Positions 22,063 to 60,505 are shown, counted from the stretch's first letter. The stretch: DNA of 64,000 bases from Candidatus Woesearchaeota archaeon (GCA_964514585.1 CAZETU010000002.1:139687-203686), one strand, 5' to 3'. The notes: generated by a model not told the origin, from the letters alone. Translations and numbers: made by a program.

Positions 22063-22117
22063 TCTTTGAAAAATACCTTATTTCACGAAATTTTTGGTTT
22101 TTCCGTGAGGTATTTTC
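22063..22117 (-). promoter_or_regulatory. Conserved island-upstream hairpin element, copy 1
   Basis: tctttgaaaaataccttatttcacgaaattttt...gtgaggtattttc; stem aaatacct/aggtattt; homologous to 57060 and 60396. Confidence 0.65.
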
Positions 22118-22228
22118 ATGTTTTTCTTCCACGTTTTTGTTTGTATCTTGTATATCTAGAATTCAGGCATGAGGCTTGAATTGTTATGTAGTTATTTGTG
22201 GAAGAGGTAATGTATTTGTAAATATAAT

Positions 22229-24109
22229 TTATGATAGGCGGATTAGTTTTTTCCAGCCTTTTTCGTATTTAATCTCTTCAATTTTAATCAATCCTTTTTC
22301 TTCTAATTGTTTTTTTACGTTTGTTCCTTTTCTTGCAGAGAGTCCGATTTGTCGGTATACTTCCACTGTGCTCAAGGAGTGATTAGGTTTTTTTTGCAAG
22401 AATTCCATGAAGACTTGCTCGTCTGCATTCAGACTAATATTATTATGCGAATTTGACTTTTTAAGTGTTACTACTGGGGGGTTTCTAAAACTATCGATTG
22501 CGAGTTTTACATCTTCACTTTTGTAGTTTCCTTGTTCTTTACTTTCTTCTAAAATTCTTTCGATTTCTTGCAATTCTACTCCTGCTTCAATGTATCCTTT
22601 TACAAAATCGTGGAGAGTTTGTTGGACGTGATCTAAGGGAGTTTCTTTTGGTTTTTCTTGGATAGTTTCAACAGGTTTTGGTTTTTCAATTTGTTTATTG
22701 AATTCTGGGTCTACTTTGTTTGCGTATTCTCGGCTTGTCATCATTGCTTGCATTCGGAGTTTAATATCTTCGTCAGAAATATATATGTTTCTTGTTTCTG
22801 AATATGGGACTTCGATTAGGAATGGAGAGTTGTAACGTTCTGAGAGTTTTACGATTGCGCTTCCTACTTGGAGTTGTGAGAAGTAGTGTCGCTTTTCTCT
22901 TAGTTGCATGATGTCGCTTATGTCATTGATATCATCTGGTAATTGTTGTTGAAATGCGATGTGACATGCAGAGTTTCCTTTTACGGTGTCGGAAATTTTT
23001 GAGATATGTTGATCAAGACAGATTAGGCTTGTTCCGTATTCTCGCATTTCTCGGTAAATCATGTCGGTTACTGATTCGTTTGAAAAATTTGTTGGTTTTT
23101 TCAAGAAAATATTATGAGCTTCGTCAACTAAGATTGCGTGATCGAAACCGTGGCTTGCTTGATTTTGTCTTGCTTTTTTTAATTTGTATATGTATGTTAA
23201 AATAAATTCGCAGAAGAATTTTTTTTCTGTGTTTCCTAGGGCATTAAGTTCCATAACTACTTTTTTGTCTAGTAGTTCTTCGACGGTAAATGAGTTTTCT
23301 CCTTTGTAATTTACTGTTTTTCCGAATTCTCCGAATGTCATAACTGTTGCAATTCTTAGAGCTGATTCTAGCCAGCCAGCTTCTCGTCCTTGTCTGGCTT
23401 TATCCATTTTTTCTTCAAGCCGCCATTTGATGTGGTTCCATGTTGGGTAGTTTTCTGAGCCGTTATAGATGCCCCATTCTTTGAAGGATTCGTCTAGGGT
23501 TTCTAGGACGACTTTGTGGACACCGAATGATGCGGAGAAACTTTCTACTAATAGATCTGAAAGTACGTTGATCCATTCTTTTGGCGCGACGCCTTTTGGG
23601 GGTTGATTGATGTTTGTCTTGAATAAATTACTTACTTTTTCTTCGCCGATAGTGAATGCTAAAATATTGTTGTTCTTCGCTATTAGAGGTCTAAATGATT
23701 TTTTCCAATCAAAGATTAGGAATGATTTGTTTTGGCTACTTAGAGCTTCGATTATTTTGAATGCGAATGTTGTTTTTCCTGATCCTGACATACCTGTGAC
23801 ACAGACGTGCCGAGGCCAGTCTTGTTCTCTTAATTTGAATGGGAAAAGTTTTTTACCTGCGTAACTTATATCTGCTAAAGAATATTTTCCGTCGATTAGC
23901 TCTTCTCTTGGTGGTTCTAGTAAAACTTCGTTTCCTAATAGTTTGTTTAGATGTTTTTGGTAGAGTGCGTTAAGAATGTGAACTATTTCGTCTCTTTCTT
24001 CTCTTGAATCTGCTACGGTATACTGAAAATAAATCTCGTCTATTTTTTTCCCAAAGACAGGCCTAAGTTTGTTACATATTTCTTCTATTGTTAGTGGTCT
24101 TTGTATCAT
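22229..24109 (-). CDS. HerA/FtsK-superfamily ATPase (DUF87) with C-terminal winged-helix-like domain
   Basis: Walker A GMSGSGKT, Walker B ILVDEAH, downstream LDQH. Confidence 0.85.
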   Translation of the reverse strand: MIQRPLTIEEICNKLRPVFGKKIDEIYFQYTVADSREERDEIVHILNALYQKHLNKLLGNEVLLEPPREELIDGKYSLADISYAGKKLFPFKLREQDWPRHVCVTGMSGSGKTTFAFKIIEALSSQNKSFLIFDWKKSFRPLIAKNNNILAFTIGEEKVSNLFKTNINQPPKGVAPKEWINVLSDLLVESFSASFGVHKVVLETLDESFKEWGIYNGSENYPTWNHIKWRLEEKMDKARQGREAGWLESALRIATVMTFGEFGKTVNYKGENSFTVEELLDKKVVMELNALGNTEKKFFCEFILTYIYKLKKARQNQASHGFDHAILVDEAHNIFLKKPTNFSNESVTDMIYREMREYGTSLICLDQHISKISDTVKGNSACHIAFQQQLPDDINDISDIMQLREKRHYFSQLQVGSAIVKLSERYNSPFLIEVPYSETRNIYISDEDIKLRMQAMMTSREYANKVDPEFNKQIEKPKPVETIQEKPKETPLDHVQQTLHDFVKGYIEAGVELQEIERILEESKEQGNYKSEDVKLAIDSFRNPPVVTLKKSNSHNNISLNADEQVFMEFLQKKPNHSLSTVEVYRQIGLSARKGTNVKKQLEEKGLIKIEEIKYEKGWKKLIRLS

Positions 24110-24125
24110 TTTGTTTAGATGTAAT

Positions 24126-24539
24126 TTAATCTGTTAGAATTTTTCCAAGCATATCTGCTCTGGACGTCTTTTCGCTTAGTTCTCTGGTTTGATCTCTTAG
24201 TTCTTTTTTCAAAAGTGCGATATCTCTCCAGCATCCTACTCTTTCGTTTAGTTGGAGTTCAGAAATATCTATTTGTTTTTTTCTTAATTCAGCTCTCTCT
24301 CTTGTAAATTCAGAATCATCTTCTCCTTTTGGTGCGTTTTCTAAAAGAAAATTGTGGATTTTTGTTTTCATTTTTTCACCTTCTTTTATGAAGTTTCCAC
24401 TGAGGTTGTTTCTTTCTTTTATTAGCATCCCAATTTCTTCTACGGTCTCTTTTATAGAGTCTACCTTTGCTTTTCCGACAGAATCGAAATTATTTGACGT
24501 ATTCCAGGTATTCCCTTCAGGTATTTCGTTATCTTCCAT
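24126..24539 (-). CDS. Coiled-coil hypothetical protein, probably co-transcribed with the ATPase
   Basis: 137-aa helical ORF 17 bp upstream of the ATPase gene. Confidence 0.7.
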   Translation of the reverse strand: MEDNEIPEGNTWNTSNNFDSVGKAKVDSIKETVEEIGMLIKERNNLSGNFIKEGEKMKTKIHNFLLENAPKGEDDSEFTRERAELRKKQIDISELQLNERVGCWRDIALLKKELRDQTRELSEKTSRADMLGKILTD

Positions 24540-24603
24540 GTTTATTTTAGTGGAATATCCTTTATAAACTTTTCTATTGTTGTTACTAAGTAGTTAGGAC
24601 ACT

Positions 24604-58709: not shown

Positions 58710-59993
58710 TTATCGGAATTGTAGGCCTATCTTCCGAAAGTGTTCTCTTGCTGCTTGTTGCGTGCTGATTGCTTTCGCGGCTTTGCTTACTTCCCCTTTC
58801 TTTTGGGTTTTAATTTGTTTAGCCGCTTTCTGGGTTTCAACTTGATTCTCCGCTTTGCCTTGGCGGGGAGGAGTTCCCTGGATTTGGTATTGTCGGATTT
58901 GTTCCTCTGTCTGAAGTGGAACCTCTACCCCATCGAATGCTCCTTTAGGAGGGAGGTTTTGTCCCGGTTGGGCCAAGCTGATTTGATTGACGAAATTGAC
59001 GACATCACGATCCATTTTGGTTGTATAGGGATCGTAGACGTAGCCTCTGACGGCTGTAGCCAATCTGCTCTCAACTCTTGACTCGGCCTTGACTTTTCCT
59101 GCGCCGAAGGTGGCGCCCACGTTTTTGTCGTTGCTTGCGACGCCGAGACCGAGGTAACTCGATTCACTCTTTGCGACGGGGCTGGGCTCTATGTATATCA
59201 TGATTAGGTCCACCCCGCTGTTGTAGAGGGCGTTCATGCAGATGCCCCTAACCATCGCTTCGTCTATCAGTACTCCCTTGTAAGTTGGGGGAGGGTCGAT
59301 AGAATACCTGCCTCCGGAAGTGTATCCTGCATAGAGCAAGGATTTTTCCACAAATTTCGGATTGAGGTTTGAGTAGATGACGATTATCTCTTTCGGTCTT
59401 CCGTCTCCGTTCTTTGGGCGGCCGTTAGAGGCTAGGAGTGTGTTAGAAAAAGGGAAGCCCCTTGCTCTTAGTCCCCATTTACCCGTGAGAACGCCTCCCA
59501 CAACTTCCCCGATGACACTTGGGATTCCTTTGCATCCCGTTTCCTTTGTGGCCTTTTTCATCAAGGCTCTGTCTTGGCTGGTCCATCGGATTGCTCCGAT
59601 CCCATATTCGTTTGTCATGGGGCCGAATACGCTTGGCCCTTTTGGATATGCTACGGGCATGGGTGGAATCCAATATGGGTTTCCTGGTGGTGAGGTTCTT
59701 GTTTCTGGGGCTTGAAACTCTTGGACGAGTTTGACGTCCTGTTGTGGGGTTACGACCGTTATTGGATTGGAGATTGCAGCTCCTCCTTCTCCAATAGCTG
59801 CTGCTATGGGGTTTGCTGTCGTTGTGACCACCGGGTTTGCTGTGGCGTTGCTTTCGCTTGAGCCTGGGCCTCTGACGATACTTGTTAGTTCCTGACTACT
59901 TGTTGTGCTGCTGCTGGAGGTACTTTGGCCCAGTGTTGTTCCAGCAACGACAAATAAAGTAATCAACGCGATTGTGACTGTGCGTTCTTTCAT
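58710..59993 (-). CDS. Secreted hypothetical protein
   Basis: Signal MKERTVTIALITLFVVAGTTLG, Ser/Thr/Pro linker, globular core, basic tail; SD agggagga. Confidence 0.8.
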   Translation of the reverse strand: MKERTVTIALITLFVVAGTTLGQSTSSSSTTSSQELTSIVRGPGSSESNATANPVVTTTANPIAAAIGEGGAAISNPITVVTPQQDVKLVQEFQAPETRTSPPGNPYWIPPMPVAYPKGPSVFGPMTNEYGIGAIRWTSQDRALMKKATKETGCKGIPSVIGEVVGGVLTGKWGLRARGFPFSNTLLASNGRPKNGDGRPKEIIVIYSNLNPKFVEKSLLYAGYTSGGRYSIDPPPTYKGVLIDEAMVRGICMNALYNSGVDLIMIYIEPSPVAKSESSYLGLGVASNDKNVGATFGAGKVKAESRVESRLATAVRGYVYDPYTTKMDRDVVNFVNQISLAQPGQNLPPKGAFDGVEVPLQTEEQIRQYQIQGTPPRQGKAENQVETQKAAKQIKTQKKGEVSKAAKAISTQQAAREHFRKIGLQFR

Positions 59994-60207
59994 GGTATAT
60001 TCCTCCCTGCTTCCATGAATACCCCCTGTTTGTAGGAACGCACCCTCCTCTTGCTTTGTTTCCTCCTTTCTTGATTTCTGGTTTCGTTGGTTCGTTCGCT
60101 TATTTGTTTGCCTGTTATTGGTAGAAGGCACAGGCATCTCTGTGAAATGTCTGCGCCCTCATTAGGGGGGGAGAGAAATATGAAACCTTACTTGGTTTCA
60201 GAATTCG

Positions 60208-60312
60208 AATGAAGGCGGTGCGATCCGTGCGGCAGAGATATCCCTTCTTCTTAAATCGCGTACGAGTCGGAGCATCCTTTCTCACTTCTAACTCCCGTCC
60301 GCCTTCATCCCC
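60208..60312 (-). ncRNA. ~105-nt three-way-junction motif, copy 2
   Basis: Closing atgaaggcgg/ccgccttcat; both ends match the 54529-54635 copy. Confidence 0.6.
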
Positions 60313-60395
60313 CAATGCTTCTGGGTTTTGTATCATATCTAACCTTGTTTGGTTAGATTGATGTTAGAGGTCATGGTCTTAACTAAATGATTGCG

Positions 60396-60505
60396 TCTTT
60401 GGAAGTACCTATTTCGCAAAGTTTTTCTTTCTTTGCTAGGTATTCCGGGGTCCACTGTGTCTTGAGGGTTGTTAATTCGGACAGTTTGGCGTGTTCGAAT
60501 GTTGT
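60396..60505 (-). promoter_or_regulatory. Conserved island-upstream two-hairpin element, copy 3
   Basis: tctttggaagtacctatttcgcaaagttttt...taggtattccggggtccactgtgtcttgagggttgttaattcgg. Confidence 0.7.

What the first reader, a model, noticed from the sequence alone, without database searches (positions are those of the whole stretch)
22063..60505. Conserved upstream hairpin element with compensatory changes
The minus-strand core GAAATA(A)GGT..TT.CAAAGA is present in all three copies and pairs with an upstream ATACCT (aaatacct/aggtattt, acctat/ataggt, tacct/aggta). Copies 2 and 3 align over ~110 nt and keep a second hairpin with different sequence (attcgggta/tactcgaat versus attcggaca/tgttcgaat), which is the covariation expected of a selected structure. 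It matches no riboswitch or IS end that I recognise.
Basis: seen in the sequence. Interest (0 to 1): 0.8.

Follow-up and report, generated by a model that had tools for sequence, protein, structure and literature searches.

The report
Phased-repeat, hairpin-rich head of archaeal gene islands
The three "upstream hairpins" are real copies of an undescribed non-coding module that heads swap-prone gene islands in tiny symbiotic archaea, and it probably combines a protein-docking array on DNA with folded hairpins, beside a gene for a DNA-pump-like ATPase.

Summary
The three minus-strand copies (about 22229-21959, 57216-57008 and 60553-60380) are paralogues of a 170-270-nt non-coding module. Each one heads a GC-rich gene island.

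- **Distribution.** The module matches no Rfam family. It occurs once per genome in many Pace-/Woesearchaeota. It usually lies 170-250 nt after a HerA/FtsK-type ATPase gene that ends in a winged-helix DNA-binding domain, and hypervariable cargo follows it.
- **Structure.** Homologues from 20-25 genomes support five helices with compensatory changes: long-range P1, alpha, beta outer and inner, gamma and delta.
  - About 86% of pair cells are paired, against 66-80% in shuffles and 23-50% when partners are slid.
  - No shuffle out of 500 reached the observed covariation score.
- **New finding.**
  - It is repeated in one orientation on both sides of the ATPase operon.
  - Spacings across 80 genomes are periodic at 10.5-10.6 bp (R 0.69; null maximum about 0.4-0.56). 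That is helical phasing on duplex DNA.
- **Best reading.** The module is a cis-acting protein-docking array, probably for the neighbouring ATPase. Its closest analogue is the TraB/clt locus. The interleaved hairpins are also under selection, probably within a leader transcript.

Function is untested. I rate it a new variant of a known kind.

The parts
21959..22229 (-). Copy 1 of the island-head module, read 5' to 3' on the minus strand. Box AATTATATTTAC 22229-22218. P1 TCCAC 22202-22198 pairs with GTGGA 22132-22128. Alpha hairpin 22182-22160. Beta hairpin 22117-22068: outer GAAAATACCT/AGGTATTTTTC, inner CACGGAA/TTTCGTG, 3' bulge AAATA. CAAAGA 22068-22063. Gamma hairpin 22053-22037. Delta hairpin GAAATACC/GGTATTTC 22029-22004. 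8-mer-like GGAATAGC 21987-21980. SD GAGGAG 21975-21970. ATG 21961.
   Evidence: R1 scores 106.6 bits at 21989-22133. R2 scores 48.9 bits at 22116-22238.
57008..57216 (-). Copy 2. Box ATCATATTCAC 57216-57206. P1 57193-57189 pairs with 57120-57116. Alpha 57163-57139. Beta 57111-57065. CAAAGA 57065-60. Gamma 57049-57035. Second GGAATACC 57015-57008 lies 96 nt after the first and has no hairpin partner. The likeness between copies 2 and 3 runs on upstream to about 57265.
   Evidence: (D18). R1 scores 69.5 bits. R2 scores 61.6 bits.
60380..60553 (-). Copy 3. Box ATCATATTTAC 60553-60543. P1 CCAC 60529-60526 pairs with GTGG 60455-60452. Alpha 60500-60475. Beta 60446-60401. CAAAGA 60401-60396. Weak gamma to about 60380. 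No delta hairpin.
   Evidence: R1 scores 88.1 bits. R2 scores 78.2 bits.
22229..24109 (-). 626-aa HerA/FtsK-superfamily P-loop ATPase with a C-terminal winged helix-turn-helix, directly upstream of copy 1. It is the candidate binder of the 8-mer array.
   Evidence: Pfam DUF87, TraG P-loop, TrwB and Zot. NCBIfam CedD 58 bits and HerA, all far below cut-off. C-terminal 65 residues modelled at pLDDT > 90 as H-H-H-beta-beta. Best PDB matches are MarR, PadR and Orc1 winged helices bound to DNA, TM 0.5-0.6.
24500..24527 (-). Three direct GRAATAC(C) words in the first codons of the 137-aa coiled-coil gene that precedes the ATPase gene. This is the upstream cluster of the same 8-mer.
   Evidence: The same cluster lies about 400 nt before the ATPase start across relatives: 22 hits in one 250-nt bin.
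13360..13505 (-). Island A 3' element, two tandem units. Each unit is an oligo-T run (T7, T6) followed by CTATATACT-type repeats. It lies just upstream of ppsA.
   Evidence: (D1/D2). Homologous elements lie at island ends in L034, L044, L053, L073 and L087.
54345..54495 (-). Island B 3' element, two tandem units (T10, T9).
57510..57600 (-). Island C 3' element, one unit (T9). An SD-led 72-aa membrane ORF follows it, then copy 2.

Best explanation
Each copy is an 'island-head' module of Pace-/Woesearchaeota with two layers.

**Layer 1 (inferred from phasing).** The invariant word GRAATACC is an 8-bp protein-binding site on duplex DNA. It is repeated in one orientation and kept on one face of the helix. 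The most likely binder is the C-terminal winged helix of the HerA/FtsK-type ATPase encoded next to it. The module would then be a cis-acting docking or loading locus for that motor. The closest analogues are the clt/TRS repeats recognised by Streptomyces TraB and, more loosely, KOPS with FtsK-gamma or a plasmid centromere.

**Layer 2 (shown by covariation).** The DNA between and around these sites encodes hairpins P1, alpha, beta-inner, gamma and delta, whose pairing is conserved while their sequence changes. The simplest reading is that they fold in the sense transcript. That transcript would start near the conserved box, run through an SD and start codon into the variable cargo, and end at the T7-T10 run of the conserved 3' element.

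**Copy number.** This genome has three such units. The six other genomes checked have one each.

**Shown:** conservation, synteny, covariation, phasing, and the winged-helix fold.

**Inferred:** who binds the sites, what the motor does, and that the folded form is RNA.
For: - **Copies in this genome.** Only three copies exist and they are strongly alike.
- **Occurrence downstream of the ATPase gene.** Among the 80 loci fetched with the ATPase homologue, model R1 finds the module at E < 0.003 in 22, always on the gene's strand. In 19 of the roughly 24 closest relatives (ATPase identity of about 66% or more) it starts 170-250 nt past the gene. In L039 it follows ppsA instead.
- **Variable cargo.** The DNA downstream differs completely between genomes. 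Among three close relatives, likeness stops at the SD/ATG.
- **Covariation, beta/gamma/delta.** 85.9% of cells are paired, against 79.6% in shuffles. 17 pairs have double changes, against 8.1 in shuffles. No shuffle out of 500 reaches the observed values. Slid controls give 27-50%.
- **Covariation, P1/alpha.** 85.5% of cells are paired, against 65.8%. The covariation score is 0.464 against 0.149. Slid controls give 23-44%. P1 spans about 90 nt and is compensated in L033 (TACAC/GTGTA), L043 (TCCGC/GCGGA) and L044 (TCAC/GTGA).
- **8-mer clustering.** In 39 loci there are 76 forward and 13 reverse copies within 500 nt after the ATPase gene, and 22 forward copies at the head of the operon. Thirty control words of the same composition give 3 clustered spacings, against 113 for the real word.
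- **Phasing.** The spacings peak at 10.5-10.6 nt.
  - R is 0.69 with n = 113.
  - R is 0.59 on the 45 distinct spacing values, against a null 99.9th percentile of 0.51.
  - R is 0.72 in the distant genomes alone, against a null maximum of 0.40.
- **Winged helix.** The model is confident and its best matches are DNA-bound winged helices. The domain is the best-conserved part of the protein's last 95 residues.
- **Known precedent.** TraB recognises direct 8-bp repeats in clt through its C terminus (PMC4447253).
- **Transcription unit.** T runs of five or more are rare inside the islands, and each island ends in T7-T10.
Against: - **No binding data.** The binder is inferred only from adjacency and domain type.
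- **Copies away from the ATPase gene.** Copies 2 and 3, and the L039 copy, are not next to the ATPase gene.
- **Phasing is weaker in the window's own clade.** There it is not significant on its own (n = 21, R 0.49, null mean 0.48). Copy 1's two sites are 87 nt apart (8.3 turns) and copy 3 has a single site.
- **Reverse copies are out of phase.** The reverse-orientation copies that form the beta and delta stems lie out of phase with the forward copies (16-18, 28, 37, 48-50 nt). They look like pairing partners rather than binding sites.
- **Hairpins are unexplained by the DNA model.** Duplex-DNA binding does not explain the covarying hairpins.
- **Strand is unresolved.**
  - Alpha carries recurrent A.C mismatches, which would be G.U on the other strand.
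  - Beta-inner and P1 carry G.U pairs.
  - Overall there are 49 G.U against 35 A.C cells, and sense and antisense folding energies are equal.
- **The ATPase differs from TraB and FtsK.** It has no membrane segments, and its matches to CedD and HerA are far below the family cut-offs.
- **No TATA box.** No clear archaeal TATA box could be placed.
Confidence: 0.5

Rival explanations
1. Purely RNA. The module is a structured 5' leader or small non-coding RNA. GRAAUACC is an RNA motif, either bound by an RNA-binding protein or used for alternative pairings between the beta, delta and epsilon arms. It controls stability, processing, read-through or translation of the island transcript. On this view the 10.5-nt periodicity is a by-product of ancestry from short tandem repeats.
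For: - Five helices show compensatory changes, including a 90-nt long-range P1.
- The module always lies on the sense strand of the downstream genes.
- An SD and ATG follow directly.
- Islands end in oligo-T runs.
- In distant genomes each 8-mer is followed by its own hairpin, and these covary between L051 and L054.
- The beta, delta and epsilon stems share one sequence, as alternative-pairing switches do.
Against: - Spacing that is periodic over 1 to 11 helical turns in 47 different architectures is not expected for RNA recognition. Indels are common in these A-rich spacers, so the phase seems to be maintained.
- Copy 2 keeps its second 8-mer at +96 nt without any pairing partner.
- Strand tests do not favour the sense strand.
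- No Rfam relative was found.
Confidence: 0.25
2. An operator array for an ordinary transcription factor, not the ATPase. The factor would silence or activate both the ATPase operon and the island promoter, perhaps by looping between the two clusters.
For: Phased, same-face sites occur at the head of the operon and at the head of the island. Sites overlap the likely promoter and leader region.
Against: - No regulator gene is conserved next to the module.
- The only DNA-binding domain that always travels with it is the ATPase's own winged helix.
- Up to five or six sites are spread over 250 bp downstream of a gene end, which is unusual for a simple operator.
Confidence: 0.15
3. A single-stranded-DNA recombination or transposition signal that captures cargo. 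Candidates are IS200/IS605-type ends, an integron attC/attI-like site, a rolling-circle origin or an oriT.
For: - Hairpins lie at the exact edge of hypervariable, often foreign, DNA.
- A conserved element also lies at the other island edge.
- The mixed G.T and A.C mismatches are compatible with DNA.
- A divergent tyrosine recombinase gene lies 1.2 kb from copy 3, in divergent orientation.
Against: - No recombinase or HUH gene accompanies the module at copy 1 or in relatives.
- The genome's IS200/IS605 copies have unrelated end hairpins.
- The module has no attC-type R/L boxes.
- Copies are diverged (77-86% identity) rather than identical.
- Other genomes have a single copy at a fixed syntenic site.
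- The pattern found no true members in viral contigs.
Confidence: 0.07

Closest known systems
clt (cis-acting locus of transfer) with TRS 8-bp repeats, recognised by TraB of Streptomyces conjugative plasmids (PMC4447253)
   Same: An FtsK/HerA-superfamily ATPase carries a C-terminal winged helix. A cluster of direct 8-bp repeats lies at or just beyond the 3' end of its gene, and repeat regions of this kind also hold inverted repeats.
   Different: Here the locus is chromosomal and in DPANN archaea. The ATPase has no membrane anchor and is not a detectable TraB relative. A second repeat cluster lies at the head of the operon. The locus adjoins a hypervariable island. Neither binding nor transfer has been tested.
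FtsK-gamma with KOPS, and SpoIIIE with SRS
   Same: An 8-bp oriented word is read by a C-terminal winged helix of a hexameric DNA pump.
   Different: KOPS are spread and skewed over the whole chromosome. GRAATACC is not over-represented genome-wide (64 observed, about 50 expected) and clusters only at the modules.
Plasmid partition centromeres made of phased iterons flanking the par operon (for example R1 parC, or pB171 parC1/parC2; from my own knowledge)
   Same: Arrays of short direct repeats in helical phase lie upstream and downstream of a two-gene operon that encodes an ATPase and a small protein. There is one locus per replicon in most genomes.
   Different: The ATPase is of the HerA/FtsK type, not ParA or ParM. 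This genome has three arrays. Covarying hairpins are interleaved with the repeats.
Leader RNAs that head long variable operons (HK022 put, Bacillus EAR, ops/JUMPstart; from my own knowledge)
   Same: A conserved structured element at the 5' end of a long transcription unit whose cargo varies.
   Different: There is no sequence or Rfam relation, no such element is known in archaea, and those elements do not consist of phased DNA words.
IS200/IS605 subterminal hairpins and integron attC sites
   Same: Imperfect hairpins at the edge of mobile cargo.
   Different: The defining partners and boxes are absent (see the membership test).

Membership tests
Any Rfam family (riboswitch, ribozyme, leader, sRNA) | Covariance-model score at or above the family's gathering threshold | tested here: not met
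   There was no hit other than tRNAs in the window. There was none at E <= 1 in 54000-61000 and none in the relative's locus. The best hits on copy 1 were 14-15 bits, against cut-offs of 55-85.
RNase P RNA / SRP RNA (single-copy housekeeping RNAs) | The element is the genome's only candidate for that RNA | tested here: not met
   Both RNAs are found elsewhere in the genome: RNase P RNA at C1:258675-258973 (80.7 bits) and SRP RNA at C2:5765-6029 (68.1 bits).
IS200/IS605 ends | End hairpins shared with the element's other copies, and a Y1 (TnpA) or TnpB gene inside the element | tested here: not met
   The genome has two 99.85%-identical 666-bp copies with a Y1 gene, at C5:30963-31628 and C5:59408-60073. 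Their end hairpins are unrelated and they carry no GRAATACC word. No Y1 gene lies in the window's islands.
Integron (attI/attC plus IntI) | An integron integrase next to the array, and attC sites with R''/L''/L'/R' boxes bounding each cassette | tested here: not met
   A divergent tyrosine recombinase lies only near copy 3 (XerA model 42 bits against a cut-off of 220; integron-integrase model E 0.003). None lies at copy 1 or in relatives. The hairpins have no GTTRRRY-type boxes, as read directly from the sequence.
TraB/clt-type transfer locus | FtsK/HerA-superfamily ATPase with a C-terminal DNA-binding winged helix | tested here: met
TraB/clt-type transfer locus | Cluster of direct 8-bp repeats at or after the 3' end of the ATPase gene | tested here: met
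   76 forward copies within 500 nt in 39 loci.
TraB/clt-type transfer locus | The ATPase binds the repeats and the locus is needed in cis for DNA transfer | not testable with these tools
   This needs EMSA or footprinting and a transfer assay.
TraB/clt-type transfer locus | Membrane-anchored pump encoded on a conjugative plasmid or AICE | tested here: not met
   The 626-aa sequence shows no hydrophobic N-terminal segment. The locus is chromosomal, between core genes (L10e, a tRNA methyltransferase-like gene, ppsA).
FtsK/KOPS | Word over-represented and strand-skewed across the chromosome | tested here: not met
Archaeal oriC (ORB boxes) | Adjacent orc1/cdc6 gene, ORB consensus and a switch in GC skew | tested here: not met
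   Cumulative GC skew rises monotonically across the window. Three copies lie within 40 kb. GTGGA is the only resemblance to the ORB consensus.

The most novel reading that the evidence does not exclude
Some DPANN archaea carry a chromosomal gene-exchange platform. An oriented, phased GRAATACC array would load the neighbouring HerA/FtsK-type pump, which would drive export or import of the DNA next to it. That DNA would then turn over fast and fill with foreign genes of CPR-bacterial type. The interleaved hairpins would form the leader that expresses whatever cargo lands there. This would be a dedicated mechanism for inter-domain gene capture in ultra-small symbionts.
Probability: 0.2. Interest if true: 0.9.

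Novelty: new variant of a known kind. Interest (0 to 1): 0.72.

Why it matters
Hypervariable islands with foreign genes are a recurring and unexplained feature of DPANN and CPR genomes; this scan has noted them in other genomes.

- **What is new.** This work gives one such island a defined, conserved head and tail. It adds a candidate protein partner and two concrete signatures that can be tested: covarying hairpins and helically phased 8-bp sites.
- **If the array loads a DNA pump.** That would link island turnover to a mechanism and would be the first clt-like locus in archaea.
- **If it is an RNA leader.** It would be a new archaeal cis-regulatory RNA family.
- **Practical use.** The models R1 and R2 and the 8-mer rule let others find island boundaries in uncultured archaeal genomes.

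Tried and rejected
- **rRNA-style processing stem.** I tested long-range pairing between the island's 5' and 3' elements, as in an rRNA-like processing stem or bulge-helix-bulge. Duplex energies were no better than shuffles.
- **Element carried in with the foreign genes.** CPR-bacterial homologues of the 635-aa island protein lack the module.
- **BLAST search of relatives.** A BLAST search of 200 family genomes with copy 2 found nothing. The module was reached only through a degenerate pattern and through synteny with the ATPase gene.
- **Island C protein.** No relatives of the 427-aa island C protein were found by peptide patterns.
- **Fourth copy in the window.** The R1 hit at 36758-36885 (E 0.04) lies antisense inside an ORF and lacks the motifs, so it is a false positive.
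- **Viral contigs.** Eleven pattern matches were found, but none was confirmed by R1.
- **IS200/IS605 ends.** They are unrelated.
- **RNase P or SRP RNA.** Both are present elsewhere in the genome.
- **Choosing the strand.** Neither wobble counts nor folding energies were conclusive.
- **KOPS-like genome-wide signal.** It is absent.
- **Leader peptide.** The 13-codon ORF across beta in copy 1 is not conserved in copies 2 and 3 or in L032.
- **Empty-site comparison for islands B and C.** I compared with the same-genus genome G087, but synteny is not preserved there.
- **Co-occurrence by a strict two-site pattern.** This test is too insensitive. Three of 15 ATPase-positive genomes matched, and all three matches lie beside the gene. 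Four of 185 ATPase-negative genomes matched, which is about the control rate.

Full report
**Setting.** The window is G000:C2:139687-203686 of a 1.04-Mb, 18-contig, about 90%-complete genome. It is AT-rich, has an intron-bearing tRNA, and its relatives are labelled Pacearchaeota, Woesearchaeota or Nanoarchaeota.

Three blocks on the minus strand stand out by composition, at 45-51% GC against 35-40% elsewhere: A about 13.5-22.0 kb, B about 54.5-57.0 kb and C about 57.6-60.4 kb. Earlier notes of this scan describe these blocks as foreign islands with tRNA look-alikes. I confirmed one point of that: the 635-aa protein of island A has its nearest relatives in Patescibacteria, at 42% identity or less.

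**The observation.**
- A profile of the core finds only these three places in the whole genome, at E 1e-14 to 1e-22.
- Each copy sits exactly at the 5' edge of one island.
- Each island ends with a second conserved element: an oligo-T run (T7-T10) followed by CTATATACT-type repeats. This element is present five times and only in this window.
- The main hairpin folds in all three copies. It contains an inner helix with three double changes between copies 1 and 3, and only wobble-preserving changes in copy 2.
- Copies 2 and 3 are alike over about 200 nt.
- No Rfam family matches.

**Relatives.**
- A degenerate pattern found one further copy, in another Nanoarchaeota MAG. It lies right after the orthologue of the 626-aa ATPase gene that precedes copy 1.
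- Fetching 80 loci through that ATPase and iterating profiles gave a family.
- Two covariance models were built: R1 (beta, gamma, delta) and R2 (box, P1, alpha).
- R1 finds the module at E < 0.003 in 22 loci, plus the three window copies. In 19 of the roughly 24 closest relatives it starts 170-250 nt past the ATPase gene, always on the gene's strand. Weaker hits lie at the same place in about eight more loci.
- Three relatives that R1 missed carry reduced versions visible by eye.
- Six other genomes hold one copy each. This genome holds three.
- In L039 the module follows ppsA rather than the ATPase gene. It is therefore tied to the island, not strictly to the gene.
- In L087 a reduced module is followed after about 130 nt by the T9/TATATA element. 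That is a nearly empty unit.

**What follows the module.**
- The cargo differs completely between genomes. It consists mostly of small secreted or membrane proteins. In some genomes it is GC-shifted and in others it is not.
- Among three close relatives, likeness runs through a further small hairpin and the Shine-Dalgarno site, and stops at the start codon.
- Inside the window's islands, T runs of five or more are rare on the sense strand, and each island ends in T7-T10. This fits one transcription unit per island.

**Anatomy and covariation.** Read on the sense strand, the module has these parts:
- a box AATCATATTYAC;
- P1, TCCAC pairing with GTGGA about 90 nt away;
- hairpin alpha, AATTCR...YGAATT;
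- a conserved single strand, CAACNCNCCAGAAACAA;
- hairpin beta, with outer stem GRAATACCT/AGGTAWTTC, an inner 6-7-bp helix and a 3' bulge GRAAT(A);
- YAAAGAAA;
- hairpin gamma, anchored on TAG;
- hairpin delta, with the same stem words as beta outer;
- in some genomes epsilon, then SD and ATG.

Copies 2 and 3 lack delta.

The pair counts are as follows.

| Alignment | Cells paired | Shuffled | Slid controls | Other measures |
|---|---|---|---|---|
| 25 sequences (beta, gamma, delta) | 85.9% | 79.6% | 27-50% | 17 pairs with double changes against 8.1; 0 of 500 shuffles reach the observed values; all 7 beta-inner pairs show double changes |
| 20 sequences (P1, alpha) | 85.5% | 65.8% | 23-44% | covariation score 0.464 against 0.149 |

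P1 is compensated in L033, L043 and L044. These alignments were fitted to the models, which favours the structure somewhat. The slid and shuffled controls and the by-eye cases argue that the signal is real.

**Which strand, and RNA or DNA?** This is not settled.
- Pair cells hold 49 G.U against 35 A.C.
- Sense and antisense folding energies do not differ.
- Alpha has a recurrent A.C mismatch that would be G.U on the other strand, whereas beta-inner and P1 carry G.U on the sense strand.
- Orientation relative to the genes, the SD/ATG and the terminal T runs favour a sense transcript. That is context, not proof.

**The turn in the analysis.** It clusters at the modules and also in the first codons of the small gene that precedes the ATPase gene.
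- Across 39 loci there are 76 forward and 13 reverse copies within 500 nt after the ATPase gene. There are 22 forward copies about 400 nt before it.
- In more distant genomes, where R1 fails, three to five direct copies remain. Each is followed by its own hairpin, and these covary between L051 and L054.
- Spacings between neighbouring same-orientation copies fall at 9-12, 20-23, 31-34, 42-44, 53-55, 62-65, 72-76, 81-85, 93-97, 105-107 and 113-116 nt.
- The periodogram peaks at 10.5-10.6 nt with R 0.69 (n = 113).
- Counting each spacing value once still gives R 0.59, against a null 99.9th percentile of 0.51.
- There are 47 different architectures.
- Distant genomes alone give R 0.72, against a null maximum of 0.40.
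- Thirty control words of the same composition give only 3 clustered spacings.

A period equal to the B-DNA helical repeat, held over one to eleven turns despite frequent indels, is the signature of sites kept on one face of duplex DNA. That implies cooperative protein binding.

Three limits apply. Within the window's own clade the sample is too small to show this alone (n = 21, R 0.49). Copy 1's spacing of 87 nt is off phase, while its 42 nt and copy 2's 96 nt are in phase. Copy 3 has one site.

**The candidate binder.**
- The neighbouring 626-aa protein is a HerA/FtsK-superfamily P-loop ATPase.
- Its last 65 residues are the best-conserved part of its tail.
- They model confidently as a winged helix. 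The best structural matches are DNA-bound MarR, PadR and Orc1 winged helices.
- A DNA pump with a C-terminal winged helix that reads direct 8-bp repeats near its own gene is exactly the TraB/clt arrangement of Streptomyces plasmids (PMC4447253).
- A weak likeness to CedD, an ATPase needed for DNA import in Saccharolobus (PMC11868833), only places the protein in the same superfamily.
- The ATPase gene is patchy: it was found in 15 of 200 family genomes searched.
- With a deliberately strict two-site pattern, the three ATPase-positive genomes that matched all had the match beside the gene. The four matches in ATPase-negative genomes are at the control rate.

**Reading.** I conclude that the module is a composite cis-element: a phased docking array on DNA plus covarying hairpins. 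The most economical account is that the array recruits the neighbouring ATPase, and that the hairpins fold in the leader of the island transcript.

A purely RNA account, an ordinary operator array, and an ssDNA recombination site remain possible, in that order. They are listed as rivals with tests. Why this genome has two extra units (B and C, in tandem, 35 kb away) is unexplained. A divergent tyrosine recombinase, an intron-bearing tRNA and a 31-nt perfect direct repeat lie just beyond copy 3. They may mark an integrated element that brought the extra units in.

**Novelty.** I found no description of this element in Rfam or in the papers searched. This scan has noted similar foreign islands in other Woesearchaeota and CPR genomes, but no note of this module was shown to me.

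Noticed in passing
window 13360-13505, 54345-54495, 57510-57600: A conserved island-tail element: an oligo-T run plus three CTATATACT-type words around a near-palindrome AATATACTATATT. It is tandemly doubled at islands A and B. It is also present at island ends before ppsA in L034, L044, L053, L073 and L087. It could be a terminator combined with the next gene's promoter, or a second protein site.
   Followed up: partly
window 61783-62976 (+), 61548-61695 (+), 60960-60990 and 61476-61506: The 397-aa ORF is a divergent tyrosine recombinase (XerA model 42 bits; not detected by Pfam). It has three homologues in the same-genus genome. It lies beside an intron-bearing tRNA gene and a perfect 31-nt direct repeat that flanks a 141-aa ORF. 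It reads divergently from islands C and B. This may be the remnant of an integrative element.
   Followed up: partly
G000:C5:30963-31628 and C5:59408-60073: Two 99.85%-identical 666-bp IS200/IS605-type elements. Each has a Y1 transposase reading frame interrupted by one TGA. One of them abuts another roughly 7-kb GC-rich block (C5:31.5-38.5 kb).
   Followed up: partly
window 57282-57500 (-): A 72-aa membrane ORF with a strong AAGGAGGTG Shine-Dalgarno site fills the AT-rich spacer between the tail of island C and the head of island B.
   Followed up: no
window 13375-13629 (-): The last ORF of island A has a signal peptide and is SD-led. It runs straight through the T run into the tail element, as if the island edge had truncated it.
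   Followed up: no
window 24500-24527 (-), and relatives about 400 nt before the ATPase start: The 8-mer cluster lies inside the first codons of the small coiled-coil gene, where it encodes E-I-P-E-G-N-T-W-N-T. The peptide motif GNTWNT recurs in the G201 orthologue. This could reflect a DNA-level constraint on a coding region.
   Followed up: partly
L043 5136-5462 (same-genus genome, first ORF after the module): The first cargo ORF begins MTTQSKGRLIVILYEGTIKFLK... From memory it resembles the bacterial flagellar chaperone FliS. I did not test this.
   Followed up: no
family-wide: The HerA/FtsK-like ATPase is not a core gene. It was found in 15 of 200 genomes sampled from the family, so the ATPase, array and island may together form an accessory module.
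   Followed up: partly
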